This document shows, one piece after another, positions 6,258-25,425 of a stretch of DNA of 58,452 nucleotides. Source of the DNA: Chloroflexota bacterium (GTDB lineage Bacteria; Chloroflexota; Anaerolineae; Anaerolineales; UBA11858); NCBI GenBank assembly GCA_030666985.1, contig DAOUWT010000001.1, positions 1 to 58,452 of the forward strand. Direction: 5' to 3'. Position numbers and translations under genes: made by a program. The notes below the pieces were generated by a model. It saw only the letters and a list, made by a program, of their open reading frames with translations, made no database searches and had not been told where the DNA came from. Positions within the stretch are counted from its first letter, which is position 1. Each line of letters begins with the position of its first letter.

Positions 6258-6267
6258 GTGGTGAAAT

Positions 6268-6903: not shown

Positions 6904-6910
6904 GGGAGAA

Positions 6911-7786: not shown

Positions 7787-7787
7787 A

Positions 7788-10296: not shown

Positions 10297-10303
10297 GGCA
10301 TTT

Positions 10304-11092
10304 TTAGCGCACGCGCCTTTTCCATTCCTCTTTGAGATGTAATTTCCGAGGGCTTTGGCCAGGCTCGAGGGTGAGGAAATCATTCATCAATCGATTGAAT
10401 TCATTAGGTCTGTCTAACATTGGGAAGTGCCCCGCTCCCTCCAGGGAAATGTGATGGAAGTGGAGAGGAAGGGTTTTAAGCATTTGTTGGGGTGGGTTTT
10501 GGATAGCAATGTCTTCTTCTCCATGGACCAGAAGACAGGGATGAGAAATGTGACGAGAGAGGTTATGGAGATCCTTGCCTTGCAGGGATTTAAGGGATTG
10601 GATAATGGCTTGCGGGTCTGTTTTGGGGGCGTCTTGACGAGCTTGGTCGCCATCGGGAGTATTGCTCAGAAGCCATGAGGCCAGTTCTTCGGGTTTCGTG
10701 TTTTCAAAACGAGAGTCAATCAGGCTTGAATCAAAAGGGAGACCAATGGCTAAAATGCGGTCTACGTATTTGGGGTGTTTTTGGGCAAAGATGGCCGCTA
10801 TAATTGCGCCGAGTCCGTGACCAATGAGGGCTATTTTCCCGATCCCCATGTTATCGAGGAAATCGTCTAAGAGGGTGACTTGTTTTTCTATGGCATAGCC
10901 ATCGAGGTTCCTGGCGGTGTCTCCAAATCCCCACATGTCTAATGCGTAGGCGCGGAAAGACACTGATGCCGCTTGCATGCTTGGTATCCAATAGCGCCAG
11001 GATCCTACCCAGCCATGCAGGAAAACAAGCGGACGGCCGCGTCCGAGAGCTTCATAATGGACTATTTCGTCTTGGATGATAATTGCACTCAT
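10304..11092 (-). CDS. Alpha/beta-hydrolase-fold protein lacking the nucleophile serine (GHGLG instead of GxSxG)
   Basis: LVFLHGWVGSW, nucleophile elbow IALIGHGLGAI (codon GGA), and retained acid/His regions (HGEEDIAI, GAGHFPMLD). It is a paralogue of 22005-22796, which has GHSMGG. Confidence 0.85.
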   Translation of the reverse strand: MSAIIIQDEIVHYEALGRGRPLVFLHGWVGSWRYWIPSMQAASVSFRAYALDMWGFGDTARNLDGYAIEKQVTLLDDFLDNMGIGKIALIGHGLGAIIAAIFAQKHPKYVDRILAIGLPFDSSLIDSRFENTKPEELASWLLSNTPDGDQARQDAPKTDPQAIIQSLKSLQGKDLHNLSRHISHPCLLVHGEEDIAIQNPPQQMLKTLPLHFHHISLEGAGHFPMLDRPNEFNRLMNDFLTLEPGQSPRKLHLKEEWKRRVR

Positions 11093-11099
11093 GTATGTT

Positions 11100-11471
11100 T
11101 TAGGTAGTTTGATCTAGTATTTGCTTTACTTCAGTAGTAAGCTCGTCAGGTGAAAAAGGCTTCAGGATATATTTGACAGCGCCAAGTTCCAAGCCGGTTT
11201 GGATTTCTTTGTCTTGGCCTTTTGCGGACAGGAAAACCAAGGGTATGTTTTTTAGTTCTTGATATGTTTTTATCTTTTCGCAGGCTTCGTACCCGGTCAT
11301 CTTGGGCATGCGGACATCCATGAGAATCATATCAGGTTTTTCGCTAATAACTTTTTGAAGGGCTTCTTCACCGTTTGTGGTGGCAATGACTTCGTGCCCG
11401 TCTAATTGCAAAGTAAAAACGATTAGATTTCTGATGTCTTTTTCGTCTTCTGCGATAATGATTTTCGCCAT
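11100..11471 (-). CDS. Single-domain response regulator (CheY-like receiver)
   Basis: IIIAEDE, MILMDVRMPKMTG, LSAKG, ILKPF. 123 aa. Confidence 0.9.
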   Translation of the reverse strand: MAKIIIAEDEKDIRNLIVFTLQLDGHEVIATTNGEEALQKVISEKPDMILMDVRMPKMTGYEACEKIKTYQELKNIPLVFLSAKGQDKEIQTGLELGAVKYILKPFSPDELTTEVKQILDQTT

Positions 11472-11517
11472 AAATAACCCTTTTAGGAAGTTCCAGAAAA
11501 ATAATCATCCCAGATTT

Positions 11518-11572
11518 CGTGAAGCGTGAAGCGTAAAACGTGACAAAGCCCTTCACGCATCACGTTTCACGG
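11518..11572. repeat. Imperfect hairpin built from GTGAAGCG / CGTTTCAC heptamer words
   Basis: cgtgaagcgtgaagcgtaaaacgtga-caaagccc-ttcacgcatcacgtttcacgg, lying between the kinase stop and the REC start. Confidence 0.8.
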
Positions 11573-11599
11573 TGGGACAATTTATTTTCTGGATGTTCC

Positions 11600-14500
11600 T
11601 TATGTTTCTCGATGAATGGGGAGAGTGAAGGAAAAGGTTGTGCCTTCTCCGAGTACCCCGTTGCTTTCGAGCCAGATGCGCCCTTTGTGCATTTGAATGA
11701 GTTGTTGGACTATAGAAAGCCCTAAACCAGTTCCAGAAGTAGCTATTACGAGAGGGTCTTCGCCTCGATAGAAACGTTCGAAGACTTTTGCGTGATCTTC
11801 AGGAGGGATGCCTACGCCTGTGTCCTTGATATCGATCTGGATTTCATCCTCGCTTTTTGCGCTTTGGGCGTGGACAGTGAGGGTAATATGCCCGTCTTCT
11901 GGAGTGTAGTGGTATGCATTTGCGAGCAGGTTGCCTAAAACTTGGTGAAGGCGCTCGGGGTCGCCGTTCACTATAGGTAGGTGGGGGGGGGTATCTAGGG
12001 TGAAGGTGAGTTCTTTTTGGTCGCCTTCAGACAATTCTTGGATGCCTTGCCAGACCTCTCGAAGGATAGGCTCAATCTGGATAGGTTGGATTGAAATGGA
12101 AATGCGACCCGCTTCGAGATGAGAGATATCTAGTAGATCATCTACCAGGATTTCCAGCCGGGTGGTGTTGGCCTTGACAATGTTTAGAAAGTCAGTTTGC
12201 CTATCTGACATTTCACCTGCAGCGCCCATCAACATGACGTCCACATATCCCTTTATCGAAGTCATAGGAGTGCGGAGTTCATGGCTAACCGTGGCTACAA
12301 ATTCCGATTTGAGGCGGTCTACTTCCACTTGGTGGGTGATATCGCGGAAGTTGGAAACTGTGCCTAGGAATTCATCTTGCATGGTAACGGGCGCGAGTTG
12401 AACAGAGGTAATGGCTCCATTATCGAGTGTGATTTGCTCTGAATAACTAACCTCCGAAGTTGTTTTTTCGCCTGATGACCAGGCCCGAATGGTTTCGATC
12501 CAGTTTTGGGCCGATTCACCAAATAAGCCGCTGAATTGTTCTAAAGATTTCCCGACGACTTTTGATCTATCTAAGTCTAGAATGGTTTCCGCGGCATCAT
12601 TGAAAAGGGTGATTTCTCGTTCGGCATTGGTAACAATAACCCCGTCAGCTACGGATTCCAAGATCGCCCGCGAACGGCTGGCTTCAACTTTTTGTGCGCG
12701 AAGCATTTGCCCCAACTCGATGGTTTGCTCTTGGATGTAATCAACCAATTGGGTGTTGTTGATGGCGACGGCTATTTGCTTTGCGGTTGCGTGGAGTAAT
12801 TCTTTTTGGTATTCGTTGAACTTCCTGGTTTGACGGCTGAAGAGAGAGATTGCGCCAAGTATATCTGCTCCATGCGCAATTGGCGCTATAATCGCGCTGC
12901 GGAGATCAGGATCAACTGTATCAGTGGATACCCATCTATCATCTGTGAGAATATCATCAACCACATAGCTTTGGTTGTGGGCGATTGCCCACCCTGCCAG
13001 ACCTTCGTCTTTCTTGAGACCGGAGGGGCGACCCCCAAGAGGCGGGGCTTCCATATAGCCACATGCAGCCCGGTAATAAAGATACTCTTCTTCTGGTCGA
13101 ATGAGGAGTATGGTGCTTTGATCAGCCTCTAGGGAAGAGTTTAGGAGGTTTAGTGTATGGTGGAGCACTTCATCCAGGTCTAGGCTGGCAGAGAGGGCTT
13201 TGAGGACGGCTAAGAGCATTTGAGAACGGTCGTGTTCTCGTTCCAGGTCTCGGGTTCGCTCGAAGACTCTTTGCTCAAGATTTGCGGTAAGAAGAGCGTT
13301 GTAGATAGATATTGCTGCCTGGTTGGCGATTATACGACTTAGCTCTATTTCTTCATTTGTGAAGCGGTGCTGGTGATCAGTTTGAATGAACAGGAAGCCC
13401 TGTAAGTCACTGCCTGTGATCAGCGGCAAAATTAGCAAACTCTTCGTTCCCCTTTGCCTGAAGAATTCATGGATGGGGGCGAGCATTTCCTCATCTTCTA
13501 CGTTTCTAGTTACAAAGACGCCTTGGGATTGTTGGATGTGTTCGAAGATTGGCGTATATGGTAGTTCATGGGGGTATGCTAGCCTTAGATCTAGCTTTCG
13601 AGAGAGTTCGGCCTGTAAGATGGCTTTCTTTTCCTTGGTCCAGAGAATGCCGGAAATGACGGAGTGGTGAATAAGTTCTGAAAGCTCTTTCAGTGTGATC
13701 TGGAAGCTTTCGTCTAAATTGAGAGATCTACTCAACTCATTTGAGAATCGGTTGAGCATCGCTAGACGCCGGGTGCGTTGGTCTAGCTCCTGGGCTCGTT
13801 CCACGCTTTCTTGGTAGAGGCCTGCGTTTTCTATGGAAATTGCGGCCTGGCTTCCAAAGGTTTGCAGCATCTGAGAGTGGGTAGATGTATAGAACCCTGG
13901 TTTGTGTTTTTCTAGGGCGATCACGCCTAGGACTTGACCTTTAGTTAAAAGAGGGACGCCTAGCCATGAGTTGGGGCCTTTTTGCTCTGCGGCTGGGAAG
14001 CGAGCATCTTTTTGGATATTGGAAACCACAAGTGGTTCACCGGTTCGAATCATCTCGTACATTAACTTGCTTTCGCTTACTTTAGTGCTTATCCCAATTA
14101 GCTCTTGGTTGTTTTCGAAGCCGCGTGCCGCGCGTATGGTTAGTTGACCGGCTTTGTGCAGCCAGAGGGCGCTTGTGTCGTAAGAGATTATTGTTGCGAG
14201 TTGCGTGAGCAGAGTATCAACCAATTCTTCGCGTTTTAAACCCGAGGAGGTGATGCTCGAAGTAGCTTGCGTGAGAGCTTCAAGTTGGGTGGCACGCTGT
14301 TCGGCTGCCTGGATTAACTGGACATTATCGAGCGCCAGGGCTGTTTGCCGGGCGAGCGAACCGAGCAAAGCTTGATCCTGGTTAGAAAAAGCACTTTCTT
14401 GCTCAAAGTTATCGAGAAGGACAATCCCCAATTGCTTGTCTCGCGTTTTGATGGGGGCTGCCAGACTCGAGATGGGCAGCAGGCCGCCAGTCCCATCTCG

Positions 14501-17500
14501 ATATAGGAGTAAATTGTTTTTTTCTAGCTCGTAATCTTGTGCAAAGTTCACCACATCCAGGCGAAGCGGATTCTTGCTCTGAAATACTTTTCCGACGAAT
14601 CCTCTTTGGGGTGAAAAAGTGATTTCTAATAATGAGGGCGTTTTTTGGTACCCGTCAGCAAGTTGCGGGATTAATTTTTTGCGAGTTTGGTCATTTAAGA
14701 GGATCATGACCCCTTGGGCAACAGGGATAAGCTGTTGGGCGCTTTCTAGGAGGGTTTTAATGATCAAGCCGGGACTTAACTCTCCCAGTTTGCGACTGAA
14801 GTCTAGCAATATATTTACTTCGCTTAGGCGCTGGCTGGTTTCTGTGAGGAGTTTGACATTTTGGATTGTATAAGAGGCTTGCTGGCTGAGCAACTCGTAT
14901 AAGCGGATTTCATCGGGACTGAATTCAGGGAAAGTTTCTTTGCTAAAAGTCAGAATAGCTGCTTCTACACCAGCAAAAGTGGTGATGGGTATGGTGATTA
15001 TTCCTCTTGCCTCCAATGTTTGGATGAGAGGGGACTTTGACCAATTGCTATCGCCGTTTATGTTTGCATCGTAGACAATTTCCCTTTGCCGTATACTCTG
15101 GACAAGTGGGTTTTGGCGGCCAAGCAGGGGATTTAACTTGGCTATGGGCGGGGTTTCTCCTCCAGTGTACAGCAGGCGCGGCCCGCCCGATCCAGGTTCA
15201 GTGATCAAATAACCGTTCATCCCCATGAGGTTCAGGAATTCCTCGCCCAAGGTTCGTAAGATGGCTTCCCGGTGGGGTTGACGATTGAGAGAGGAGATAA
15301 GCTCTAAACTGGATTGAATGCGTTTAGCTTTGACTTCCAGGCGTTTCGTCTCTGCTTCCCTCGCAACATGGGCGGCGCTGGCCCTAAGCTCAGAGAGTTT
15401 TTTGTGACTTTCAATGGCCAGGGATGCCTGGCTGGCAAAAATCCCCAGCGTTTCGACCGCTGCTTGGGTTGGTCGTAAGTGGTCTTGAGGTGTATCTACT
15501 CTAATAAGGCCTAATGGATGACCAGACGTGTCCTGGAGAGGAATGACAAGGAGGTCTTCTGGCCGCCAGATTTCCTTTGGTATAGCCTGGATGCCTAATT
15601 CCTCCATTCCTGCTTGGCTTGCTGCCGATATCGCTTGGATGTCAGTCAATGTGGGTGGTCTATCTTCAGAAGGGATGAAGTAAGAACGTCCAAATTTAAA
15701 ATCATCCCGTAGTATTTCTCGAAGGCTGTTCCAATTTTGAGGTTTTTCTTTTAATTCTTCTAAGGCCTCAAGAGGAAATCCAACTCCACTAAGATTATGT
15801 AGGCCCTGGTCTGCCTCCTCGTACACACTTATCAAAACTTTGGTGAAGGAAGTAGAGGCCTGAATACCGTAGGCAATATTCTCGAGGGCTTGCTCGAGGG
15901 GTTGGTCGAGACTGAGTTCTTCAGAGGTTTTGAACAAGTTGGAGAGAATTTTCACTCGCTGGTTCAAGAGCGTGGTCTGTTCTATCTGTTGTTGGTAGCG
16001 TTGGGCGTTTCCCAGGGCGATGGCTGCCTGAACTGATAAGGCCTCGATAATGCTGCGGGAGGTTTTGTCAAAATGCTCTGCTTGGCTTGCGTGGAGGTGG
16101 ATCAAACCGGCTACCTGGTCTTGGTAGGTGATAGGCACTATGAGCGAGGAGCGTATTCCCTTATGGGGGGGAGCGGTGGGGGGCTGAAAATCATCGACAT
16201 TGAGCGTCTTCCCCGTGTTAAGGACAACGCGCTCCAAGGGGTGAAGTTCGTCGTGAAGATCATCGCCAATGTGGAGCATGATACCGGGATGGGTGGGACG
16301 GGTATCCCCTTGTTCGAGAAGGAAAATTGCCCCACAATTTGCTTGTGTCAGTCGAATAGCTTCTTCGAATACCAGTTGCAGGAGGGTCTCAAGGTCAAGA
16401 GTGCTGTTCAAAGCCTGACTGACGCGCGTTAGTGCTGTAAGTTGCTCTACGCGTTGGCGTAAAGTGGCGTCAGTTTCTATTGTCAGGGAAACCCTTTCGA
16501 GAGCACTGGCAATCTGTCTGGCAATCGCAGAGACCAATTGTAGGTCAACTTTCTGGAAAGCCTCCTCATACGAGTTGCTTAGAAGAATTTCTCCAATCCC
16601 CCGGCCACGGATGATCAATGGGACAATGATCAGGGATGATATTTGGAGGGTTTTTACTGCTTTTTGGTAAAGTTCCGGAATGTCTGGGTCAGTCTTAGCC
16701 TGACCGGAAAAGATGGGTTGGGCTGTGTATGTGACCGTCTTGTGAAAATCAGATGCACTTGCCAATTGCGTAAATTTTATTTGGGTATCTTGGCCTAGTT
16801 GATGACCAGATATGTCATGTAGTTCTAGTTTCGCTTGGCTCTCGTCAAGTAGGAAAACAGCTCCTTTTTCAGCTTTTATGAGACGAACGAGTTCCAAGAG
16901 AGAATACTTGAGAATTTCATCAGTGGTAGCTTCGGAGCCAGCCAGGTTAGCAATCCGGCGAATAGCCTCTGAGCGGAGGGCGCGTTTTATGGATTGGTGG
17001 AGTAGTTCGGCGTTTTCGATGAGTGGTGCAGTTTGTCCGGCTATGATTTCCAGAAGGCGTTTATCGTTCCCGGTCAGTTTGCCTCCCGATTTCTTATTGG
17101 CCACCTGCAAATAACCGAGATTGCGCCCCCTTGAAATTAGCGGAACTAGAATAGTAGCGTGTATTCCGGCTGCCTGGGCAATATGGTCGATTCCTAGGGC
17201 TTGGAGACGGTGGTCATCTGGAGCTTCAGGTGTCAGGATGCTTTGTTCTTTTTCCCAAACCTGTTCAGCCGGGCCTCCTACCGCTATCTCTGTTTTATAC
17301 ATTTCTATGATGTAGGCAGGAATCCCGATAAAAGGATTTCGTGCTTCTAAGATGTGTTTGTTCTCGTTGTAAATCAGGAAACCGGCAATATTTACATCAA
17401 GGAGTGAAGGGATATTTTTCAATAATTGGGAGAAAAGCTCGTTTAGATTGCGAGCCGACCCGCTGACTTGCGAAAGTTCGGCCAGACTCGATAATTCGCG

Positions 17501-18481: not shown

Positions 18482-18487
18482 GAATTT

Positions 18488-19372
18488 TTACTTATCTCGT
18501 CGTTCTTGGGCGGCCAATTCAGTGATTTCTCGAATATCTGAAAATTGGTGAGTGGCAGGTGAAACAACTCCAAGCGACAGCGTCATGAGCGGATAACGTT
18601 CTTCCTCTCCGGCTTCATTGGTGGCTGTGATATATCCTTGCTCTCGATCGATGAAGTGATAATGGGTGAGTACCTTCTCGGCAAAACGCTCTTTCACTTT
18701 TTGGGCAATGCCACTTGCCGCTTTGTGAGAAGTAGTGATGATAAAGTTATCGCCTCCCACATGCCCGATGAAGTCTTCAGGCGTCCCCGTTTCGTCGACA
18801 GTTTCATTGAGGATCATGGCGGTAAAACGGAGGACATCATCTCCCGTTACAAACCCATACACTTCCTTGAAGGCTTCAAAGTGGTCAATCCGGATGTCCA
18901 TCAAAGCCCAATTTTCTTCGCGAATGAGGCGGCGGAGTTGCTCCTCGATGAGGCGGCCCGAGGGAAGCCCTGAGCGGGGGTCAGTCAGGCTTTCCCGTTC
19001 GGCCCGGGAGATAGCATTCTTTACACGCAGGTTAAGTTCTTCGATATCAAAGGGTTTAGTGATGTAATCATCAGCTCCTAGTTCTAATCCCTGAAGCTTA
19101 TCGCTGCGCTCGTCTTTCTGAGTCAGGAAGATGACCGGGATGTGGCTGGTACGAGTGCTCGTCCGCAGACGACGGCAAACTTCATAGCCATCAATATCCG
19201 GAAGCATGATGTCCAAGACAATTAGATGCGGCATGTGTTTGCGTGTTTTCTCCAGCGCTTCTGAACCACGAGGGGCAACATCTACCTTATAGTTCTGGCC
19301 GGTGAAATAGATCTTGAGCATGTTCGAGATATCAAAGTCATCTTCTACAATCAATAGATGGGATTTGCTCAT
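18488..19372 (-). CDS. Response regulator: receiver domain plus degenerate GGDEF domain (GGDNF)
   Basis: LLIVEDD, LIVLDIMLPDIDG, DDYITKPF. The GGDEF fold has HVGGDNF. Its stop lies 6 nt upstream of the giant kinase start. 294 aa. Confidence 0.9.
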   Translation of the reverse strand: MSKSHLLIVEDDFDISNMLKIYFTGQNYKVDVAPRGSEALEKTRKHMPHLIVLDIMLPDIDGYEVCRRLRTSTRTSHIPVIFLTQKDERSDKLQGLELGADDYITKPFDIEELNLRVKNAISRAERESLTDPRSGLPSGRLIEEQLRRLIREENWALMDIRIDHFEAFKEVYGFVTGDDVLRFTAMILNETVDETGTPEDFIGHVGGDNFIITTSHKAASGIAQKVKERFAEKVLTHYHFIDREQGYITATNEAGEEERYPLMTLSLGVVSPATHQFSDIREITELAAQERRDK

Positions 19373-19420
19373 AATTTTCTCCTGCTTGTTACTAGCTTGA
19401 AGTATGAAAAAATATGGTAA

Positions 19421-20497
19421 TTATTTTCTTTTTGCGTTCTCGCGAATGGTCTTTATTTGCATATCTGTAATGGGACGCTCGAATGAACGGAATCCGCTTA
19501 ATTTGAAACCATGTTTATCGGCAATTGCGGCAATTTCTCTTACCTGTCGAAGGTTTGATTTTTTCCCTAGACTATAGTCTTCGAACTTTCCTTCTAGTGC
19601 TAAGGCAATCGTCTCAGCCATGCAGGCGTAGGCTTTGCCAGGGGGGAAGCCAAAATCAAAATTGAAATTTACTAGCCCGGGAACATCGACGACGCCGCCA
19701 TCAATCACCAGGACATCGTCTCGCTCTTTAGCAATTGCCTCTGAAACGTCTCGAGGACGAGCAACATCGCAGATGACGCTTCCTGGGCGGAGATGCTGCG
19801 GTTGGACGATGGCTTGGACTGAGCTTGTCACGGTGAGGATTAGATCCGCCTCCCAGAGGCTGTTCAGGTCTGTGGATACGACCAATTGGGCAGAAGAATT
19901 GCCTTCTAATCTTGAATGAAGTTCATGCAATTTCTTTTCAGTGCGCCCGATCAAAAAGAGGCGGGCAACTTCTTCGGCAAGGAGAGCGGCGCAAACTTCA
20001 CCAATCGAGCCAGTGGCGCCAACCACGGCTGCGGTAGCCTCACTTACCTCGATATTCATTAACTTGGCTGCCTTGTGTATCGACTGGATGGCGGTTGCAA
20101 TTGTGTAGGAGTTGCCGGTCGTTACCGGGATATCTAAACGTTTTGCTACTGTTATCCCTCCGTCACCAACAACTGCTGTAAAGGCACCTAGCCCTACAAT
20201 ATCTGCTCCCAGCCGTTCCGCGAGACGCCCGGTCTGAACGATTTTCCGATAAGCGACCCACTCAGGTAATTCTACCATACGTTGCGAGGTTAACGGGCAG
20301 GCGATCAACCAGCCTTTGATTGTTTTTCCAGTGGATTCTGAAGTGATATTTTGAATTTCGGAAAGATAGACCGGCGGAAAGAAGGTGGAGAAAAAGTTGA
20401 TCAGCGGTGCATTGAGCACTTTCCCCAAAAAGGGGAATTTCCGTTTGACATCCCGTTTGGGGTCTATGGGGTGGATGATGAAAGCGAAGCTATCCAT
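19421..20497 (-). CDS. Acyl-ACP reductase (AAR)-family-like NAD(P)-dependent oxidoreductase
   Basis: From memory it is collinear with cyanobacterial AAR. Matching motifs: FIIHP vs LIGHL, GLGAFTAVV, TTGNSYT vs TTGNTHT, AAVVGATGSIG vs VAVVGATGDIG, ACMAETIALALEG vs ACFAEAMLLEFEG (the Cys aligned with the AAR catalytic Cys is present). Confidence 0.7.
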   Translation of the reverse strand: MDSFAFIIHPIDPKRDVKRKFPFLGKVLNAPLINFFSTFFPPVYLSEIQNITSESTGKTIKGWLIACPLTSQRMVELPEWVAYRKIVQTGRLAERLGADIVGLGAFTAVVGDGGITVAKRLDIPVTTGNSYTIATAIQSIHKAAKLMNIEVSEATAAVVGATGSIGEVCAALLAEEVARLFLIGRTEKKLHELHSRLEGNSSAQLVVSTDLNSLWEADLILTVTSSVQAIVQPQHLRPGSVICDVARPRDVSEAIAKERDDVLVIDGGVVDVPGLVNFNFDFGFPPGKAYACMAETIALALEGKFEDYSLGKKSNLRQVREIAAIADKHGFKLSGFRSFERPITDMQIKTIRENAKRK

Positions 20498-20500
20498 TTT

Positions 20501-21784
20501 TCACCAGGAAGCATCCTTGATTTCCCCTAGCCGTGGATAAAGGCGTTTGTGCTTATCTGCAAATGAAAAATGACGGTGGTCGCTGTCTTCATACTTAATG
20601 TCTTTCCTGATAATTCGCCTTTCATCTGAGGCTACGAGGACAACGTCGGATTCGATAGTTCTTCCTGGGAAGACAATCATCCCGGAGCCTATTCGGCAGT
20701 TGTGCCCTACGCAGCCTCCCAAAACAGGCCGGTTGGCAGAATCAAGCTTGCCGCTGCCATTCAAGGCTTTCAAAGGAGTTGGGATCAAGTTGAAGTCTGT
20801 GAAGGTTGAGCCAGCTCCAATGAAGGTGTTTCTTCCTATTACGCACATTTGGAGGCACGTATTTTGGGCAACCATGCAGTTGTCCATGAGAGTGGTCATG
20901 AAAAGCGAAGCCCTAAAAGGGAGAAAAGTTCCATTGCCAATCACTGAGAGCATTAGCTGGCAGCCTTGAGAGATATTGACATTATCTCCAATAACACAAT
21001 TTTCAATGCTTGTCCCGGCCCCAACTGTGACATTGTCGCCAATGATTGTTGGGCCATGGATGACAGCCGAAGGATCAATAACGCAGTTGCGACCAATTTT
21101 AACTACTTCTGAACATTCCAGGATTTGTTTCCCCTCATACATAGCTTTTGCCAGAGTGTTCAATTTGGCGAAGGGGCTTTTATCTATTTTCGCCTCGAAC
21201 CTGGCCCCGCGTGAAAATACACCAAAGACAACGTCGGCGATAAAGATATGCACCCAGGAGTCTATAGCCAATAAATTTCGGAGTGGAACCTGGAATGTTA
21301 GATCGCCTTTCTCAGATGCCATGTAAGTTGGGACATGATAGTATCCAACTTCACGTGCTTGGAGGTCTACCACGAGCGGCTTGGTGCCGCGGCTTGGCCC
21401 ATTGGGGTAGTACCAAAGGTCTGCCAAATAGATATCCTTATCTGGCACATGAGTGTATGAAGTTGAAAGAGGGAAGGCGTGTTCTATGAAGGCTGGATCT
21501 CGACCCGAGAAAGCCGCGCGGGAGGGATAATCGCGCTCCATAGCTTTTTCCAAGAAAGCTTTTACATATCTTTCGTCAAAGTATAAATTGTCCCGGTGAA
21601 CAAGGCAGGCTTCTTCGGTATCGGGGAGAGGATAATTAAGGGGAAGTTCTACTTCTCGTTCTACGTAGGGAGAGAGGACATCATGCTGAAAGAGCCAGAG
21701 AGGTTTGTTTTGAATACGCAAATCTCGGGCTGGCTCATTAAAAGGATAAATATGTTCAGGATGTTGGCGTATTATTCTGAGCAT
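20501..21784 (-). CDS. Left-handed beta-helix (hexapeptide-repeat) transferase-family protein with an unassigned ~230-aa N-terminal domain
   Basis: Hexapeptide repeats IGRNCVIDPSAVIHGPTIIGDNVTVGAGTSIENCVIGDNVNISQGC.... I place the start at ATG 21784 (MLRIIRQHPE...). The tracked 78-codon extension translates the G-rich repeat and overlaps the upstream gene. Confidence 0.75.
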   Translation of the reverse strand: MLRIIRQHPEHIYPFNEPARDLRIQNKPLWLFQHDVLSPYVEREVELPLNYPLPDTEEACLVHRDNLYFDERYVKAFLEKAMERDYPSRAAFSGRDPAFIEHAFPLSTSYTHVPDKDIYLADLWYYPNGPSRGTKPLVVDLQAREVGYYHVPTYMASEKGDLTFQVPLRNLLAIDSWVHIFIADVVFGVFSRGARFEAKIDKSPFAKLNTLAKAMYEGKQILECSEVVKIGRNCVIDPSAVIHGPTIIGDNVTVGAGTSIENCVIGDNVNISQGCQLMLSVIGNGTFLPFRASLFMTTLMDNCMVAQNTCLQMCVIGRNTFIGAGSTFTDFNLIPTPLKALNGSGKLDSANRPVLGGCVGHNCRIGSGMIVFPGRTIESDVVLVASDERRIIRKDIKYEDSDHRHFSFADKHKRLYPRLGEIKDASW

Positions 21785-21834
21785 AGTGTAGGGTGTTCCA
21801 GGTATATAGTAGTGATTATTCAGCCCCTGTAGAT

Positions 21835-21975
21835 TTTTTGGGGGAGGGGTGCCACGCGGGGGGGGGGACGGGGGGGGTGGGGCGTGAGACCAACCCCCAA
21901 GCGTGACCCCACGCTCAAGCGGGGAGCAACCCTGGGGGGGACGGGGGGGTGCGCTCCCACCAATCTCCAACGGGG
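21835..21975 (+). repeat. Copy of the dispersed G-rich/hairpin element
   Basis: tttttgggggaggggtgccacgcggggggggggacggggggggtggggcgtgagaccaacccccaagcgtgaccccacgctcaagcgggg... shares blocks with 8555-8664 and with the reverse complement of 5621-5716. Confidence 0.75.
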
Positions 21976-22004
21976 AGTGAATGGTCACTCTGAGACTTGA
22001 GGTT

Positions 22005-22796
22005 TTAGGCTGCTTCATCCTCTATAAAAAGTCTGAGAGTTTCCATGAATTTATTGGGTTGATCGAGCATTATGAAGTGTCCGGCATCATCAAAGCGTTC
22101 TATGCGCACATTTGGGATATGGGCCTGCATGAGCTGCCATTGATCAGGGTCTACAATGACATCTTTTTTCCCATACATTCCCATGGCCGGTATTCTTATC
22201 TGGTCAAGATGCGGTCGGAGGTCTGTTTGCCGGAGAGTGGAAATACTGATCAGAAAAGATTCTAAAGTGGTTCGGGAAAGGTCTCTATCCATCATTTCTG
22301 GCCAATGAGGGTCTTTGGTTATAAAAGGAGAAGAAACACGAATTCCCATCCTAAGCGCCCACATAGAACTGAAAACCAACTTGGCAATCCATCTCTGCCC
22401 TGCTAGTTTGAGCAATAGAGCAAGTGATTCACCGGTGATTGGAGAACCGATTACCGCCACCTTTTGAACTCGGTTGGGGTGCTCTATCGCCAGGGAGAGG
22501 CTGACCGTTCCCCCCATGCTGTGTCCGATCACGGGTGCCTGGATGATGCCCAGGTGGTCCATGAATTGCTCGACCATCTCGACAAAGTCTTCCACTGCAA
22601 AAGATTGTTGTTTTCTCCCCGATTCTCCAAAGCCCCAGAAATCAAGGGCATAAGTTCGGTAATGCTGTCCTAGATATGTCATCGTCCTTTGCCACAGACC
22701 CCAGGAGCCTAGCCATCCATGCAAGAGGATAATTGGCCGGCCCCGGCCGTACACTTCGTAGTGAAGAATACCTTGATCGGTTGTAATCGAGGACAT
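22005..22796 (-). CDS. Alpha/beta hydrolase (intact Ser-Asp-His)
   Basis: ILLHGWLGSW, VIGHSMGGTV, GKKDVIVD, DAGHFIMLDQP. 263 aa. Confidence 0.9.
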   Translation of the reverse strand: MSSITTDQGILHYEVYGRGRPIILLHGWLGSWGLWQRTMTYLGQHYRTYALDFWGFGESGRKQQSFAVEDFVEMVEQFMDHLGIIQAPVIGHSMGGTVSLSLAIEHPNRVQKVAVIGSPITGESLALLLKLAGQRWIAKLVFSSMWALRMGIRVSSPFITKDPHWPEMMDRDLSRTTLESFLISISTLRQTDLRPHLDQIRIPAMGMYGKKDVIVDPDQWQLMQAHIPNVRIERFDDAGHFIMLDQPNKFMETLRLFIEDEAA

Positions 22797-22813
22797 AGAG
22801 TTGGTTTCGTGGT

Positions 22814-23353
22814 TTAGAACTCGCCTGCCCCCATTTTTTCAAGGATACTATATAGGAGTTCCAGCAAGGCGGTTTTGACGGATTCTTTGTCAGTAGCTAC
22901 GCAGGGTAATAGTTTAACCTCAGGAGAAAGGCGCAGTGCAATTCGCATATCGCTTGTCTCCCAGGCATCGGGGAGATCTTGTTTGTTGGCGGTGACAACA
23001 TACGGAGTTGGGGCATACGCTCGGAAAGTCTCCAGAATTCGGCGTGCTTCTCGGAAGGTTTCCGGTCGAGCGCTATCTACCATGACGATAAAACCCAACA
23101 TGCCTTCTGAGAGAATCTCCCACATGAAGTCAAAGCGTTTCTGGCCCGGGGTTCCGAAGAGGTAGAGAACGAGTTCATCGTCAACTGTGATACGACCAAA
23201 GTCCATGGCGACCGTGGTTGTCTCTTTGATCTTTTCTGCTTCTGATGAGATTTTACGTTCGGTAGCAACAACGTCAATTTCACTGACAGACTGGATGAAT
23301 TCGGTTTTTCCTGAGCTAAAAGGGCCGGTAATAACCATTTTGACGGTTTGCAT
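22814..23353 (-). CDS. Small Ras-like GTPase of the MglA/CvnD (COG2229-like) type
   Basis: G1 GPFSSGKT, G2 region TTTVAMDFG, G3 FGTPGQ, G4 NKQD. 179 aa. Confidence 0.85.
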   Translation of the reverse strand: MQTVKMVITGPFSSGKTEFIQSVSEIDVVATERKISSEAEKIKETTTVAMDFGRITVDDELVLYLFGTPGQKRFDFMWEILSEGMLGFIVMVDSARPETFREARRILETFRAYAPTPYVVTANKQDLPDAWETSDMRIALRLSPEVKLLPCVATDKESVKTALLELLYSILEKMGAGEF

Positions 23354-23397
23354 AAGATCTTTCCTTTTTAAAATGACTAATGATTAGGTTAAGAAAA

Positions 23398-24216
23398 TTA
23401 TAATGATTGAATTCGTTTTATCAAACGGTTGACAAGTGACTTTTGTTCTTGTTCACCACTGACAGGGAGGGACGGTTTTTTGTACTTGGTCGCTGTGGCG
23501 CTTGCGGGGCGAATCAATTGAGCTAGCCCAGCCTGAAGTAATCCATAGACAATGCGGCGAATCTCCAAGTCATTCATCTTTGTGGCTTTAGCAATTTGTT
23601 GAATTGTATTTTTGGGATTGACATAAGAGACCACCCGCCACTCTTCGACGCTTAAGTTCACGTTGCGGATGTCTGTGCCGGGGTTATCGGTGAATTTCAA
23701 AGCCATTTCCAGGCTGGGTATTTCATCCTGAAGTTGCTCCCATTCTCGCAGACGGCGAGACCCTTCCATAATGATGTTTTCCAGGTTGATCCGCAGGGTG
23801 ATTTTGCCATCTTGAGGGAGAATATCGTTCTGAAATTGGAATAAGCCTTCCACCCAAGTAAAGAGATTATTGACTGTTCTTACATATTCCTCTTTTAGGC
23901 CAGTGAGAATTTCTTTTTGAGTGACGTAATTTGCGTTTATCAATAATAAGCCTAATTCTTTATCCCCTATATTTCCTGCCCTGGATTGAATTAACCTAAC
24001 TTGTCTTTTAGTGAGTTTGTCATTCCTGTACAAGGTTGCTGCCAAACTAGTGTTACGCTGATCACTGTATGCGTGGGCTAGTTTTCCTTCCCGGAAGGCG
24101 ATCCACGCAGTTTGGCCGGGACCTTTTACTTCTAATGTCCCGGTTTTTTGAGCTAGACTAATCAAGTTCAAAAGCTGTGTAATTGTAAAATCTCTGAGAT
24201 TACCTTTTAATGCCAT
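23398..24216 (-). CDS. DUF4388 (PATAN-like) domain protein with a possible C-terminal wHTH
   Basis: N-terminus LKGNLRDFTITQLLNLISLAQKTGTLEV is the DUF4388 signature. The C-terminal TIQQIAKATKMNDLEIRRIVYGLLQAGL looks like a DUF742/CvnC-type HTH, but that is an inference. Confidence 0.75.
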   Translation of the reverse strand: MALKGNLRDFTITQLLNLISLAQKTGTLEVKGPGQTAWIAFREGKLAHAYSDQRNTSLAATLYRNDKLTKRQVRLIQSRAGNIGDKELGLLLINANYVTQKEILTGLKEEYVRTVNNLFTWVEGLFQFQNDILPQDGKITLRINLENIIMEGSRRLREWEQLQDEIPSLEMALKFTDNPGTDIRNVNLSVEEWRVVSYVNPKNTIQQIAKATKMNDLEIRRIVYGLLQAGLAQLIRPASATATKYKKPSLPVSGEQEQKSLVNRLIKRIQSL

Positions 24217-24252
24217 GCCAGCCTCGTAAGTTATTGCTTATAGATTGTTGTG

Positions 24253-24281
24253 ATTATACATCTAAGCTTGAGATGCGTCAA
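24253..24281 (-). promoter_or_regulatory. Strong sigma70-type promoter for the DUF4388-GTPase string
   Basis: The minus strand reads TTGACG (24281-24276), a 17-nt spacer, then TATAAT (24258-24253). A GAGG RBS precedes ATG 24216. Confidence 0.55.
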
Positions 24282-24467: not shown

Positions 24468-24489
24468 AAAAAGCCCGCCGAGGGCGGGC
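24468..24489 (-). terminator. Rho-independent terminator of the two-gene cassette
   Basis: The minus strand reads GCCCGCC-ctc-GGCGGGC followed by TTTTT, 37 nt downstream of the stop at 24526. Confidence 0.65.
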
Positions 24490-24525
24490 TGTCAGGCACA
24501 GTAAAATGGAGGTGGTGACACCAGT

Positions 24526-25241: not shown

Positions 25242-25425
25242 GGTGCTCCTCTGGTAAAACTCTGGCGATAAAATGCCTTATTGGTTTTCAAACTCGAGTT
25301 TCTATCACGGTACATGTTTAAAAATGCAGTGTAATACAAGTACTCTCAGAAATATTATAACCTATGCCCGTCCGCCTGGTCAACGAGCAGAGGGCTGCTT
25401 CCGGCGTATTGGTAATCGCTTCTTC

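What the first reader, a model, noticed from the sequence alone, without database searches (positions are those of the whole stretch)
10304..24281. Nine-gene string joining a DUF4388/Ras-like GTPase module, lipid-type enzymes and a 10-GAF two-component system
Seen: nine minus-strand genes follow a TTGACG-17-TATAAT promoter (24253-24281). The gaps are 44, 17, 220, 3, 48, 6, 128 and 7 nt, and the two long gaps are filled only by repeat elements. The order is DUF4388, small GTPase (GPFSSGKT / TPGQ / NKQD), alpha/beta hydrolase, hexapeptide-repeat protein, AAR-like reductase, REC-GGDNF regulator, 2293-aa 10-GAF histidine kinase, REC, and a Ser-less alpha/beta hydrolase. Known: MglA/CvnD-type GTPases work with Roadblock and HTH partners and with a kinase-like protein in actinobacterial conservons, and AAR-family enzymes reduce acyl-thioesters to fatty aldehydes. 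Inference: this may be one unit in which a GTPase switch and a phosphorelay control, or sense the product of, a fatty-aldehyde or fatty-alcohol type lipid branch. I do not know of a described system with this composition.
Basis: partly seen in the sequence, partly recalled or inferred. Interest (0 to 1): 0.8.

Follow-up and report, generated by a model that had tools for sequence, protein, structure and literature searches.

The report
Conserved Anaerolineae GTPase-phosphorelay operon
The nine-gene string is real: a Ras-like GTPase, a giant sensor kinase and several lipid-type enzymes sit behind one deeply conserved promoter and keep the same order in at least 80 species-level genomes assigned to Anaerolineae/Chloroflexota. 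Its function is still unknown, and its 'fatty-aldehyde' reductase has been lost repeatedly.

Summary

The string is a conserved unit, not a chance run. In 83 non-redundant related loci (all named ones are Anaerolineae/Chloroflexota MAGs) the order is PATAN-wHTH, GTPase, Ser-hydrolase, (V4R), NT-LbH, (AAR-like reductase), REC-degenerate GGDEF, multi-GAF kinase, REC, Ser-less hydrolase. The flanks differ, and median junction gaps are -1 to 62 nt.

TTGACG-17-TATAAT lies upstream of the first gene in 79% of loci, against 0.4% of random windows. No internal junction is enriched for promoters.

The lipid reading holds only in part:
- The reductase keeps the AAR catalytic Cys, but is absent in 18 loci and fragmentary in 3, through at least 10 independent losses.
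- V4R is also optional.
- The most persistent core is NT-LbH + REC-GGDEF* + giant GAF kinase.
- Distant LbH relatives sit beside ACP/PKS genes or GT2 glycosyltransferases; one is fused to a GT2.

The GTPase is MglA-family group-5-like. It is neither MglA proper nor a conservon CvnD. A Roadblock-V4R-REC-GGDEF*-GT2 module lies nearby and abuts the string in three relatives.

Best reading: one signalling operon in which a phosphorelay and a GTPase switch act on, or sense, an acyl- or glycolipid-type product. The function is untested.

The parts
24253..24281 (-). Sigma-70-type promoter TTGACG-17-TATAAT of the string. The spacer CATCTCAAGCTTAGATG is partly palindromic.
   Evidence: Read directly; 11/12. 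The same hexamers and spacing occur 32-89 nt (mostly about 40-50) upstream of the PATAN start in 52 of 68 loci; the spacer consensus is C-a-t...t.cCTtgCAtG.
24472..24490 (-). Intrinsic-terminator-like hairpin (8 pairs, 7 G-C, T-run) ending the preceding TumE-type gene pair. It marks the upstream boundary of the unit.
23398..24216 (-). PATAN (DUF4388/PatA_N) protein, 272 aa, with a predicted C-terminal winged helix and terminal helix. No receiver domain.
   Evidence: Pfam PF14332, 88.6 bits. AF2 model pLDDT 78.7, with H-H-H-beta winged-helix elements at 190-235. Foldseek gives weak hits to NPRL2/3 of GATOR1 and to MarR/RovA. About 60% identity across the class.
22814..23353 (-). Small Ras-superfamily GTPase, 179 aa, MglA-family group-5-like (G1 GPFSSGKT, G2 TTT, G3 GTPGQ, G4 NKQD).
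   Evidence: Pfam ATP_bind_1 71.8 bits, Ras, Arf. PDB: archaeal Arf-like GTPase and MglA. GTPGQ in 72/72 and NKQD in 71/72 orthologues; about 80% identity class-wide; 70% of positions are at least 90% conserved. Group criteria from PMC4316618.
22005..22796 (-). Alpha/beta hydrolase 1 (263 aa) with an intact Ser-Asp-His triad (GHSMGG).
   Evidence: Abhydrolase_1 126 bits. GHSMG in 72/72 orthologues. In relatives its stop overlaps the V4R start (median gap -1 nt).
21785..22004 (-). 220-nt spacer with C-rich dispersed repeats. It occupies the position of the V4R gene present in 47 of 64 related loci.
   Evidence: No significant RNA structure (z = -0.97).
20501..21784 (-). NT-LbH protein (427 aa): a diverged sugar-1-phosphate nucleotidyltransferase-like N-domain without the G-x-G-T-R loop, followed by a left-handed beta-helix.
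   Evidence: Hexapep/LbH_EIF2B/GlmU-C hits. AF2 + Foldseek top hits ST0452, RmlA, GlmU and GMPPA/B. About 66% identity class-wide. Family extends to 25-30% identity.
19421..20497 (-). COG5322 AAR/PigE-N-like NAD(P)-dependent thioester reductase (358 aa). It is an accessory member of the string.
   Evidence: NCBIfam PigE 227.5 bits (cut-off 850) and AAR 114.1 bits (cut-off 449.7). PDB 4ppm and 6jzq alignments keep AAR Cys294 (= Cys292) and GATGSIG. [YF]ACMAE in 56/56 orthologues. Absent in 18 and fragmentary in 3 of 80 loci.
18488..19372 (-). Response regulator: receiver + degenerate GGDEF domain (GGDNF, no RxxD I-site), 294 aa.
   Evidence: The acceptor-Asp motif LDIMLPD is in 73/74 orthologues. 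GGDNF in 56; the fourth residue is never Glu. About 71% identity class-wide.
11600..18481 (-). Histidine kinase, 2293 aa: one N-terminal hydrophobic segment, ten tandem GAF domains, PAS, HisKA, HATPase_c.
   Evidence: Orthologues have a median length of 2461 aa and only about 36% identity.
11472..11599 (-). 128-nt palindromic repeat element (GTGAAACGTGA family) between the kinase and REC genes. It forms a stable hairpin and has no T-run.
   Evidence: In other species this junction is about 6 nt.
11100..11471 (-). Single-domain receiver protein (123 aa).
   Evidence: Response_reg 103 bits. [MLF]DVRMP in 63/63 orthologues. It follows the kinase in 60 of 62 loci.
10304..11092 (-). Alpha/beta-hydrolase-fold protein 2 (262 aa) lacking the nucleophile Ser (GHGLG). 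It has a conserved basic C-terminal tail, KEEWKRRVR.
   Evidence: The nucleophile position is Gly in 20 and Asp in 3 of 23 orthologues, never Ser. It follows REC in 20 of 22 loci.
5886..8513 (+). Associated module, convergent with the string beyond thyA/folA: Roadblock/LC7 (5886-6257), V4R (6268-6903), a second REC-degenerate GGDEF (ORF 6818-7786; true start probably near 6920), and a GT2 polyprenyl-phosphate-hexose-transferase-like protein (7788-8513).
   Evidence: In L006, L012 and L014 the same four genes lie directly upstream of the PATAN gene on the same strand.

Best explanation
The region is one conserved signalling operon found across the Anaerolineae-type genomes sampled, transcribed from a single conserved sigma-70-type promoter.

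SHOWN.
- The gene order PATAN-wHTH, small GTPase, Ser-hydrolase, (V4R), NT-LbH, (AAR-like reductase), REC-degenerate GGDEF, membrane-anchored 10-GAF/PAS histidine kinase, REC, Ser-less hydrolase is kept in at least 80 species-level genomes.
- Junctions are compact and the proteins are under strong purifying selection.
- V4R and the reductase are optional.
- NT-LbH + REC-GGDEF* + giant GAF kinase persist even in more distant contigs.

INFERRED MECHANISM.
1. The kinase integrates cytoplasmic small-molecule cues through its GAF/PAS array and phosphorylates the two receiver proteins.
2. Neither receiver protein carries a DNA-binding or catalytically competent output, so they act by protein-protein contact.
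3. Their likely targets are the NT-LbH enzyme and the GTPase switch. This parallels the receiver protein RomR, which together with RomX forms the exchange factor for MglA in Myxococcus.
4. The GTPase works on a PATAN platform, with Roadblock and V4R partners encoded nearby.
5. The winged helix of the PATAN protein may bind the conserved motif in the promoter spacer and so autoregulate the operon.
6. The enzyme-like proteins make, trim or bind a hydrophobic acyl-type molecule. These are NT-LbH (probably an acyl-carrier-dependent acyltransferase acting on a nucleotide-linked or sugar substrate), the active hydrolase, the Ser-less hydrolase-fold protein, V4R and, where present, the thioester reductase.
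7. That molecule is either the regulated product (an envelope lipid or glycolipid; the GT2 links point this way) or the signal fed back to the sensor domains.
For: SYNTENY. PATAN-GTPase-hydrolase lies directly upstream of LbH in 64/70 loci. REC-GGDEF + GAF kinase lie downstream in 73/75. REC follows the kinase in 60/62. The Ser-less hydrolase follows REC in 20/22. Flanking genes differ between loci.

OPERON SIGNALS. Median junction gaps are -1 to 62 nt. The promoter is conserved only in front of the first gene, and a terminator precedes it.

SELECTION. Between the window and L001 the string proteins are 75-93% identical, except the kinase at 65%. The adjacent thymidylate synthase is 78%. Functional motifs are conserved.

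PERSISTENT CORE.
- L087: V4R-LbH-REC/GGDEF-x-GAF kinase, with a GTPase, Roadblock, V4R and MreB alongside.
- L089: LbH-reductase-REC/GGDEF-GAF kinase.

LbH FAMILY CONTEXTS.
- ACP + acyl ligase + acyl-CoA dehydrogenase + MMPL.
- PKS.
- GT2 + phosphodiesterase, and a GT2::LbH fusion placed after a PAS kinase.

OUTPUT-LESS REGULATORS. The motif is GGDNF, the fourth residue is never Glu, and there is no RxxD.

GTPase PARTNERS.
- PATAN neighbourhoods of MglA-family GTPases are documented (PMC4316618).
- V4R is the TRAPPC3/Bet3 homologue and binds hydrophobic ligands (PMC10933270).
- A Roadblock-V4R-REC/GGDEF-GT2 module lies in the window and abuts the string in L006, L012 and L014.
- A winged helix is predicted in the PATAN protein.
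Against: - There is no experimental or expression data. Co-transcription is inferred from spacing and promoter distribution only.
- In this window a -54 kcal/mol hairpin separates the kinase from the last two genes. An 11/12 promoter-like site also lies just before the GTPase gene, although that site is not conserved.
- The upstream trio is absent in 6 of 70 loci, so modules A and B can function apart.
- The chemistry is undefined. The NT-like domain lacks the nucleotide-binding loop, the LbH model has low confidence (pLDDT 63.7), and contexts of distant LbH relatives are heterogeneous (L090 and L092 are uninformative).
- The PATAN-to-NPRL2/3 similarity is weak (TM about 0.25).
- No partner contacts were modelled.
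Confidence: 0.5

Rival explanations
1. The AAR-like reductase and the LbH protein form a fatty-aldehyde or fatty-alcohol lipid branch, and that branch is the thing controlled or sensed by the GTPase and the phosphorelay.
For: - The reductase keeps the AAR acyl-enzyme Cys and the NAD(P) motif.
- It is translationally close to LbH (median gap 3 nt).
- COG5322 domains reduce ACP-thioesters to aldehydes in AAR and in PigE/KecF-type enzymes (PMC6498172).
- V4R relatives bind palmitate.
- A distant LbH relative sits next to an ADO-like protein and PKS genes.
Against: - The reductase is absent in 18 and decayed in situ in 3 of 80 loci, through at least 10 independent losses on the LbH tree, while all other genes remain.
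- It is far below the AAR (114 against 449.7) and PigE (227 against 850) cut-offs.
- No ADO, ACP, acyl ligase, aminotransferase or wax/alcohol-forming partner is in the string.
- LbH has a GlmU/ST0452-type architecture and GT2 links.
Confidence: 0.2
2. An MglA-type polarity or motility switch. The GTPase with PATAN (and Roadblock) sets cell or filament polarity, gliding, pili or division. The two-component system plays the role that Frz plays in Myxococcus, and the enzymes are bystanders.
For: - MglA is among the best PDB sequence matches.
- PATAN and Roadblock are classic MglA-neighbourhood proteins.
- PATAN response regulators act on the pilus motor in cyanobacteria (bioRxiv 10.1101/2021.06.11.447907, listed; title and abstract only).
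- MreB lies next to the related cluster in L087.
Against: - The GTPase lacks the group-1 hallmarks: TVPGQ and the intrinsic Arg finger.
- No pilus, gliding or division genes occur in or next to the string in any locus inspected.
- The enzyme genes are as conserved and as tightly packed as the signalling genes.
Confidence: 0.12
3. Two or three functionally unrelated operons (PATAN-GTPase-hydrolase; LbH-reductase; a two-component system with a hydrolase) that merely lie side by side.
For: - The upstream trio is missing in 6 of 70 loci.
- Distant relatives keep only LbH + regulator + kinase.
- The window has a hairpin element and a 220-nt gap inside the string.
Against: - Order is kept in 64/70 and 73/75 loci despite different flanks.
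- Gaps of tens of nucleotides are the rule.
- A conserved promoter is found only before the first gene, and five internal junctions tested are at background.
- Larger internal gaps appear only where V4R or the reductase has been deleted.
Confidence: 0.1

Closest known systems
MglA-family small GTPase modules with PATAN and Roadblock (MglB) neighbours (Makarova et al. 2006; Wuichet and Sogaard-Andersen 2014, PMC4316618). This includes the Myxococcus MglA-MglB-RomR/RomX switch driven by the Frz phosphorelay.
   Same: - A single-domain Ras-superfamily GTPase with the G3 motif GTPGQ.
- A PATAN protein encoded immediately next to it.
- A Roadblock gene nearby.
- Receiver-domain proteins and a histidine kinase in the same locus.
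   Different: - The GTPase is group-5-like, not group 1: no TVPGQ and no intrinsic Arg finger.
- The PATAN protein carries a winged helix instead of a receiver domain.
- Roadblock is outside the string.
- The locus also holds two hydrolase-fold proteins, an NT-LbH protein, an optional V4R and an AAR-like reductase, none of which are part of any described MglA module.
- No motility genes are present.
Actinobacterial conservon (CvnA kinase-like, CvnB Roadblock, CvnC DUF742, CvnD GTPase).
   Same: - A histidine kinase and an MglA-family GTPase with GTPGQ in one conserved unit.
- An HTH-like partner.
- The idea that the GTPase is an output of the kinase.
   Different: - G4 is NKQD, not the conservon NxFD.
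- There is no adjacent Roadblock and no detected DUF742.
- Response regulators are present here; conservons have none.
- The kinase is a 10-GAF giant.
- Enzyme genes are embedded in the unit.
Cyanobacterial acyl-ACP reductase (AAR, with ADO) and the N-terminal reductase domain of PigE/KecF (COG5322).
   Same: - The same fold family.
- The catalytic Cys (AAR Cys294) and the GxTGxIG NAD(P) motif are conserved.
- Best PDB sequence matches are 4ppm (PigE) and 6jzq (AAR).
   Different: - Scores are far below both family cut-offs.
- There is no ADO partner and no fused aminotransferase.
- The gene is dispensable within the string.
GlmU / ST0452 / GMPPA-GMPPB type proteins (nucleotidyltransferase domain + left-handed beta-helix), and the LpxA/LpxD acyl-ACP-dependent LbH acyltransferases.
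   Same: - The same two-domain architecture by fold search.
- The LbH segment aligns to GlmU and LpxD.
- Relatives sit next to ACP and to glycosyltransferases.
   Different: - The G-x-G-T-R nucleotide loop is replaced (RQHPEH).
- Equivalog scores are about 38 bits against cut-offs above 360.
- Substrate and activity are unknown.
Hydrolase-fold proteins used as signalling partners (RsbQ with the PAS phosphatase RsbP; KAI2/D14). Comparison from my own knowledge, not tested here.
   Same: Alpha/beta-hydrolase-fold proteins are encoded inside a signalling operon next to sensor or receiver proteins. One of them is catalytically disabled.
   Different: No sequence-level relationship to RsbQ/KAI2 was tested. 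The partners here are a GTPase, V4R, REC and a GAF kinase.

Membership tests
MglA family, groups 2-5 (Wuichet and Sogaard-Andersen 2014) | G3 motif GTPGQ, and Thr instead of the intrinsic Arg next to the G2 Thr. | tested here: met
   GTPGQ in the window and in 72/72 orthologues. G2 is [ATS]TTVAMD with no Arg. Criteria quoted from PMC4316618.
MglA group 1 (MglA/SofG proper) | G3 motif TVPGQ and an intrinsic arginine finger adjacent to the G2 Thr. | tested here: not met
   GTPGQ and TTT.
Conservon CvnD (MglA group 2) | G4 motif NxFD. | tested here: not met
   NKQD in 71/72 orthologues. Criterion.
Conservon (cvnA-D operon) | Four adjacent genes: kinase-like CvnA, Roadblock CvnB, DUF742 CvnC and GTPase CvnD, with no response regulator. 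| tested here: not met
   No Roadblock or DUF742 hit among the nine proteins. Two response regulators are present. Roadblock lies at 5886-6257 on the other strand.
PATAN / PatA_N (PF14332) | Match to the domain model above the gathering score. | tested here: met
   88.6 bits against a cut-off of 25, covering residues 4-160.
PatA-type PATAN response regulators | PATAN domain fused to a receiver domain. | tested here: not met
   No Response_reg hit. The C-terminal part is predicted to be a winged helix.
Long-chain acyl-ACP reductase AAR (TIGR04058) | Equivalog score of at least 449.7. | tested here: not met
   114.1 bits.
Long-chain acyl-ACP reductase AAR (TIGR04058) | Catalytic Cys (Cys294 of the S. 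elongatus enzyme) and the NAD(P) Gly-rich motif. | tested here: met
   The alignment to 6jzq places Cys292 on Cys294, and GATGSIG aligns with GATGDIG. Conserved in 56/56 orthologues. The catalytic role of Cys294 is from my own knowledge.
AAR-ADO alkane pathway | An adjacent aldehyde-deformylating oxygenase. | tested here: not met
   No Ald_deCOase hit in the string or in the flanking ORFs scanned (window 238-8513 and 24526-35605).
PigE-type reductase-aminotransferase (NF053554) | Score of at least 850 and a fused class-III aminotransferase domain. | tested here: not met
   227.5 bits, covering only model positions 45-356 of 837.
Diguanylate cyclase (GGDEF, PleD type) | GG[DE]EF active-site motif, plus the RxxD inhibitory site in PleD. 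| tested here: not met
   GGDNF; the fourth residue is never Glu in 64 orthologues. TPED stands in place of RxxD. The Pfam match covers only positions 2-123 of 161.
GlmU / archaeal bifunctional sugar-1-P nucleotidyltransferase-acetyltransferase | Family score cut-offs and the N-terminal G-x-G-T-R nucleotide-binding loop. | tested here: not met
   Best score 38.5 bits against 658. The N-terminus reads MLRIIRQHPEHIYPF. Only the overall architecture matches (Foldseek E 7e-6, TM about 0.25, model pLDDT 63.7).
Serine alpha/beta hydrolases | G-x-S-x-G nucleophile elbow with Asp and His. | tested here: met
   For the first hydrolase only: GHSMG in 72/72 orthologues, with Asp and His columns conserved.
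Serine alpha/beta hydrolases | G-x-S-x-G nucleophile elbow (second hydrolase-fold protein, 10304-11092). | tested here: not met
   GHGLG in 19, GHDLG in 3 and GHGYG in 1 of 23 orthologues.
Classical two-component system | HisKA + HATPase_c kinase, and receiver domains with the acceptor Asp. | tested here: met
   LDIMLPD and [MLF]DVRMP are conserved. Phosphotransfer itself cannot be tested with these tools.

The most novel reading that the evidence does not exclude
The locus encodes a bacterial counterpart of the eukaryotic GTPase 'platform' machines (Rag-Ragulator-GATOR, TRAPP). Its parts would be a small GTPase, a PATAN protein whose fold resembles the longin + winged-helix architecture of NPRL2/3, a Roadblock protein and a Bet3-like V4R protein. 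This machine would be hard-wired to a giant GAF phosphorelay and would read out, or steer, an acyl-carrier-derived lipid or glycolipid. That would be a previously unrecognised lipid- or nutrient-sensing GTPase circuit that is core to a whole bacterial class.
Probability: 0.15. Interest if true: 0.85.

Novelty: new variant of a known kind. Interest (0 to 1): 0.62.

Why it matters
Anaerolineae are abundant filamentous bacteria in sediments, digesters and activated sludge, and almost nothing is known about their signalling.

This operon is as conserved as thymidylate synthase across the Anaerolineae-type genomes sampled. It brings together three poorly understood elements:
- group-5 MglA-type GTPases;
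- the PATAN domain;
- output-less REC-GGDEF proteins.

It places them alongside enzyme-like proteins and one very large cytoplasmic sensor kinase. That gives a defined, compact set of 9-14 proteins for testing what prokaryotic Ras-like GTPases do outside motility, and how a phosphorelay can drive a GTPase switch. Relatives of the string occur in genera with cultured type strains (Anaerolinea, Bellilinea, Longilinea). The first half of the string is listed for the cultured strain Anaerolinea thermolimosa.

The repeated loss of the reductase and of V4R also provides natural 'knock-outs' for comparative work.

Tried and rejected
- Rfam and tRNA scans of the window found nothing.
It was redone with database homologues.
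- Metagenome scans with alignments of distant LbH relatives could not be run, because no stretch was conserved enough. The wider LbH family therefore rests on nine sampled contexts.
- Profile comparison of the PATAN family with unannotated neighbours of the distant clusters was negative (L089 342-aa protein, L087 315-aa protein).
- Pfam on the PATAN C-terminus gave only sub-threshold winged-helix hits (E 0.04-0.09).
- 'Shikimate dehydrogenase' as the identity of the reductase (a database name) was rejected. Only the NAD-binding domain matches that model, whereas the full length aligns to AAR and PigE.
- 'Multidrug transporter' as the identity of the LbH protein (a database name) was rejected as an annotation artefact.
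- A working diguanylate cyclase was rejected.
- A conservon was rejected.
- Contexts L090 and L092 of distant LbH relatives were uninformative.
- Phage, plasmid and E. coli collections were not searched, being irrelevant to a Chloroflexota chromosome.

Full report
OBSERVATION

The intergenic distances recompute to 44, 17, 220, 3, 48, 6, 128 and 7 nt. The only caveat concerns the hexapeptide-repeat (LbH) gene. Its longest ORF (505 aa, 20501-22018) starts inside the repeat-filled gap. The real start is Met79 at position 21784, because all homologues begin with MLxII.

Pfam and NCBIfam confirm each product:
- PatA_N/DUF4388.
- A small GTPase (ATP_bind_1/Ras/Arf).
- An alpha/beta hydrolase with GHSMGG.
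- A hexapeptide/LbH protein.
- A COG5322-type reductase.
- REC + GGDEF with GGDNF.
- A 2293-aa kinase with GAF x9, PAS, HisKA and HATPase_c.
- A single REC.
- A hydrolase-fold protein with GHGLG in place of the nucleophile elbow.

A profile trained on the kinase's own repeats finds ten tandem GAF units between residues 157 and 1917. The fifth is divergent.

The promoter TTGACG-17-TATAAT at 24281-24253 is there, preceded by a strong terminator-like hairpin at 24490-24472. The two long gaps do hold dispersed repeats:
- The 128-nt gap is a nested palindrome of the GTGAAACGTGA family (22 window hits against 0.76 expected). It folds at -54.2 kcal/mol, z = -7.7.
- The 220-nt gap carries a C-rich motif found six times in the window against 0.13 expected.

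IS IT MORE THAN CHANCE?

Yes, by comparative evidence. The reductase and LbH proteins have thousands of homologues at about 65-85% identity. Nearly all the named ones come from Anaerolineae/Chloroflexota MAGs (two carry other, probably mis-binned, labels), and the window itself is an NCBI MAG contig.

Three contigs carrying reductase orthologues of 67-78% identity show the same string with different flanking genes. A scan of one genome per species with the LbH alignment returned 80 loci, capped, from at least 269 relatives. All are labelled Anaerolineae, Anaerolineales or Chloroflexota.

Tabulating the nine proteins plus V4R on these loci gives:

| Feature | Loci |
|---|---|
| PATAN-GTPase-hydrolase directly upstream of LbH | 64 of 70 informative |
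| REC-GGDEF + GAF kinase downstream of LbH | 73 of 75 |
| REC after the kinase | 60 of 62 |
| Ser-less hydrolase after REC | 20 of 22 |

Median junction gaps across about 70 species are 26, 22, -1, 62, 3, 15, 17, 6 and 15 nt.

The promoter is the most striking part. A site matching at least 11 of 12 consensus positions lies within 150 nt upstream of the PATAN start in 79% of 67 loci. The figure is 0.4% for random 150-nt windows and 0-1% upstream of each of five internal genes tested (GTPase, hydrolase 1, LbH, REC-GGDEF, REC). In 52 of 68 loci the site fits TT[GT]ACN-17-TATAAT, mostly TTGACG itself. The spacer motif C-a-t...t.cCTtgCAtG is conserved, and in many loci a CCCC...GGGG hairpin sits in the 5' leader.

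Between the window and its relative L001, eight of the string proteins are 75-93% identical and the kinase is 65%. The neighbouring thymidylate synthase is 78%. Class-wide identities to the window proteins are:

| Protein | Identity |
|---|---|
| GTPase | about 80% |
| REC-GGDEF | about 71% |
| LbH | about 66% |
| Reductase and hydrolase 1 | about 64% |
| PATAN | about 60% |
| Ser-less hydrolase | about 54% |
| Kinase | about 36% |

WHAT THE PARTS ARE

GTPase. It has G1 GPFSSGKT, a TTT G2 region, G3 GTPGQ and G4 NKQD, conserved in 71-72 of 72 orthologues. By the published classification, GTPGQ plus Thr in place of the Arg finger defines MglA-family groups 2-5, and the conservon group 2 has NxFD in G4 (PMC4316618). 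The protein is therefore group-5-like. That group is reported in Chloroflexi and occasionally lies next to PATAN genes. It is neither MglA proper nor CvnD.

PATAN protein. It has no receiver domain. An AlphaFold model (pLDDT 78.7) shows:
- the PATAN core with its helical insertion;
- a helix-helix-helix-strand winged-helix unit at residues 190-235;
- a terminal helix.

Foldseek's best PDB hits are the NPRL2/NPRL3 chains of GATOR1/SEA (E 2e-3, probability 0.94, TM about 0.25), and MarR/RovA for the winged helix. This is a lead, not a demonstration.

LbH protein. A moderate model (pLDDT 63.7) gives a nucleotidyltransferase-like Rossmann-type domain, a linker and a beta-helix. Its best structural matches are ST0452, RmlA, GlmU and GMPPA/B. 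The G-x-G-T-R loop is replaced by RQHPEH, while the following L-x-I-x-N-K-P-L stretch is kept (read).

Reductase. It aligns over its full length to PigE (4ppm, E 6e-39) and to AAR (6jzq, E 6e-26). The AAR Cys294 equivalent (Cys292) and GATGSIG are preserved and conserved in all orthologues. It scores far below both family cut-offs.

REC-GGDEF protein. It has a normal receiver. The GGDEF part is degenerate: GGDNF, never Glu at the fourth position, no RxxD, and the guanine-binding Asn/His positions changed.

Hydrolases. The first keeps Ser-Asp-His in 72 of 72 orthologues. The second never has Ser (Gly in 20, Asp in 3) and ends in a conserved basic tail.

WHAT IS CORE AND WHAT IS ACCESSORY

The AAR-like reductase is full-length in 59 non-redundant loci, absent in 18 and reduced to fragments in 3 (L014, L023, L082). 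On an LbH tree these cases are scattered, which implies at least ten independent losses. Where it is missing, the LbH-to-regulator gap widens to a median of 256 nt, as expected for decay in place.

A V4R gene lies between hydrolase 1 and LbH in 47 of 64 loci, usually overlapping the hydrolase stop codon. The window and L001 lack it. The window's 220-nt repeat-filled gap occupies its slot.

More distant contigs keep a smaller core:
- L087 (LbH 45% identical) has V4R-LbH-REC/GGDEF-unknown-GAF kinase (3011 aa). Next to it, divergently, are a GTPase, two unknown proteins, Roadblock, a V4R protein and MreB.
- L089 (43%) has LbH-reductase-REC/GGDEF-GAF kinase (2988 aa).

The most persistent association is therefore NT-LbH with the degenerate-GGDEF regulator and the giant GAF kinase.

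SURROUNDINGS

Convergent with the string, beyond thyA and folA, the window encodes four further genes:
- Roadblock/LC7 (5886-6257).
- A V4R protein (6268-6903), 43% identical to the in-string V4R of L003.
- A second REC-degenerate GGDEF (39% identical to the one in the string).
- A GT2 enzyme resembling polyprenyl-phosphate hexose transferases.

In L006, L012 and L014, which belong to the window's subclade, these four genes lie directly upstream of the PATAN gene on the same strand. That makes a 13-14-gene array.

V4R is the prokaryotic homologue of TRAPPC3/Bet3 and binds hydrophobic ligands such as palmitate or phenols (PMC10933270).

THE WIDER LbH FAMILY

An exhaustive search of representatives finds full-length relatives down to 25-30% identity. 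Nine sampled contexts give:
- the two signalling clusters above (L087, L089);
- an acyl ligase + ACP + LbH + acyl-CoA dehydrogenase + MMPL cluster (L093; ACP confirmed at 23.2 bits against a cut-off of 20.8);
- two PKS contexts, one of them with a weak ADO-like protein (L086, L094);
- an LbH-GT2-phosphodiesterase-GT2-GT2 cluster (L091);
- a GT2::LbH fusion placed right after a PAS histidine kinase and before the same phosphodiesterase type (L088);
- two uninformative contexts.

This pattern fits an LbH acyltransferase working with carrier-protein-bound acyl groups on a sugar- or nucleotide-type acceptor. LpxA and LpxD work this way (from my own knowledge), and the LbH segment aligns to LpxD. 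It does not prove that activity.

HOW IT MOST LIKELY WORKS

Shown: one conserved transcription-unit-like array, intact kinase and receiver motifs, an intact GTPase, one intact and one disabled hydrolase fold, a reductase with an intact active site that is dispensable, and regulators without a DNA-binding or catalytic output.

Inferred:
1. The membrane-anchored kinase reads cytoplasmic ligands through ten GAF domains and a PAS domain, and phosphorylates both receivers.
2. The receivers act by protein contact on the NT-LbH enzyme and on the GTPase switch. Receiver proteins already do this for MglA in Myxococcus (RomR/RomX as exchange factor; Frz outputs). This comes from my own knowledge and from the titles and abstracts of papers listed.
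3. The GTPase cycles on the PATAN platform, with Roadblock and V4R partners.
4. The winged helix of the PATAN protein is the only candidate DNA binder. The conserved promoter-spacer motif is a candidate operator, which suggests autoregulation.
5. The hydrolases, V4R, LbH and, where present, the reductase handle a hydrophobic acyl-type molecule. That molecule is either the regulated product (an envelope lipid or glycolipid; the GT2 links point this way) or a feedback signal.

I put 0.5 on this overall picture. Confidence is about 0.9 for 'one conserved co-functional unit' and much lower for any specific chemistry.

RIVALS

It keeps some support from the conserved active site and the lipid contexts of LbH relatives (0.2).
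- A pure MglA-type polarity or motility role is weakened by the group-5 features and by the absence of motility genes (0.12).
- Unrelated neighbouring operons are hard to reconcile with the synteny, the spacing and the single conserved promoter (0.1).

COMPARISON AND NOVELTY

PATAN-MglA/MglB neighbourhoods and kinase-GTPase conservons are known. The first half of this string is even listed, without comment, in the gene table around a nitrite reductase of Anaerolinea thermolimosa (PMC8756737).

Seven literature searches found no description of the full string. I rate it a new variant of a known kind: a small-GTPase-plus-phosphorelay signalling locus. What is unusual is the set of embedded enzyme-like proteins, the conservation throughout the sampled Anaerolineae genomes, and a deeply conserved promoter.

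LIMITS

- There are no expression or interaction data.
- Taxon labels are those of the MAG records.
- The phyletic limit outside Anaerolineae was not determined. L087 and L089 are unclassified contigs.
- The LbH model and the PATAN-NPRL similarity are of low confidence.

Noticed in passing
window 5886-8513 (+); L006 about 4158-6843; L012 about 4256-6987; L014 about 4364-7036: A Roadblock/LC7 - V4R - REC-degenerate GGDEF (motif NPTDF) - GT2 (polyprenyl-phosphate hexose transferase-like) operon lies convergent with the string in the window. In three related genomes it lies directly upstream of the PATAN gene on the same strand. It probably supplies the MglB-like partner of the GTPase.
   Followed up: partly
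L003-L085, 150 nt upstream of the PATAN genes; window 24217-24281: Beyond the hexamers, the promoter spacer carries a conserved motif (C-a-t...t.cCTtgCAtG, often CATG...CATG). Many orthologous leaders hold a CCCC-N-GGGG hairpin followed by T-rich sequence and the ribosome-binding GAGG. These are a candidate operator and a candidate leader element. The window lacks the leader hairpin.
   Followed up: partly
window 24310-24390 and 25427-25507: An 81-nt repeat (96% identical copies) contains a perfect GAGGAACGCGTTCCTC-type palindrome. One copy sits just upstream of the string's promoter. The other sits just upstream of the promoter-like site (25383-25354) of the neighbouring gene pair.
   Followed up: no
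window 24526-25241 (-) and 25812-26607 (+): Two small toxin-antitoxin-like pairs lie immediately upstream of the string. One is a TumE-family toxin (143 aa) overlapping a 95-aa partner. The other is a Pol-beta-type nucleotidyltransferase (135 aa) with an NTase-substrate-binding (HEPN-like) protein (132 aa).
   Followed up: no
window 4275-4372, 5726-5750, 8825-8835, 11519-11570, 38407-38452, 42543-42560, 57160-57219; also 10134-10303: Intergenic regions of this genome are filled with heptamer-based palindromic repeats. The GTGAAACGTGA family has 22 hits against 0.76 expected. A TGGTAYRTTGG / CCAATATACCA family lies downstream of the last gene of the string. An array with an 8-nt register (27 overlapping copies of a 128-nt unit spaced 8 nt apart, as reported by the repeat finder) lies at 4374-4709.
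   Followed up: partly
window 27158-35605 (+): A 2815-aa predicted surface protein combines an M23 peptidase domain, long leucine-rich-repeat arrays, fibronectin type III, cohesin and Ig-like domains, and Thr/Pro-rich linkers.
   Followed up: no
L046 467-9670: In one species about 9 kb is inserted between the V4R and LbH genes of the string. The insert encodes a NACHT/STAND NTPase fused to an FGE-sulfatase-type domain, a PDZ-4xGAF histidine kinase and a FIST-domain protein.
   Followed up: partly
L088 10001-12442 (protein P0386): A natural fusion joins a membrane GT2 glycosyltransferase (Glyco_transf_21 / Glyco_tranf_2_3) to the NT-LbH module. It is encoded directly after a PAS histidine kinase and before an alkaline-phosphatase-type phosphodiesterase. 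The unfused arrangement LbH-GT2-phosphodiesterase-GT2-GT2 occurs in L091.
   Followed up: partly
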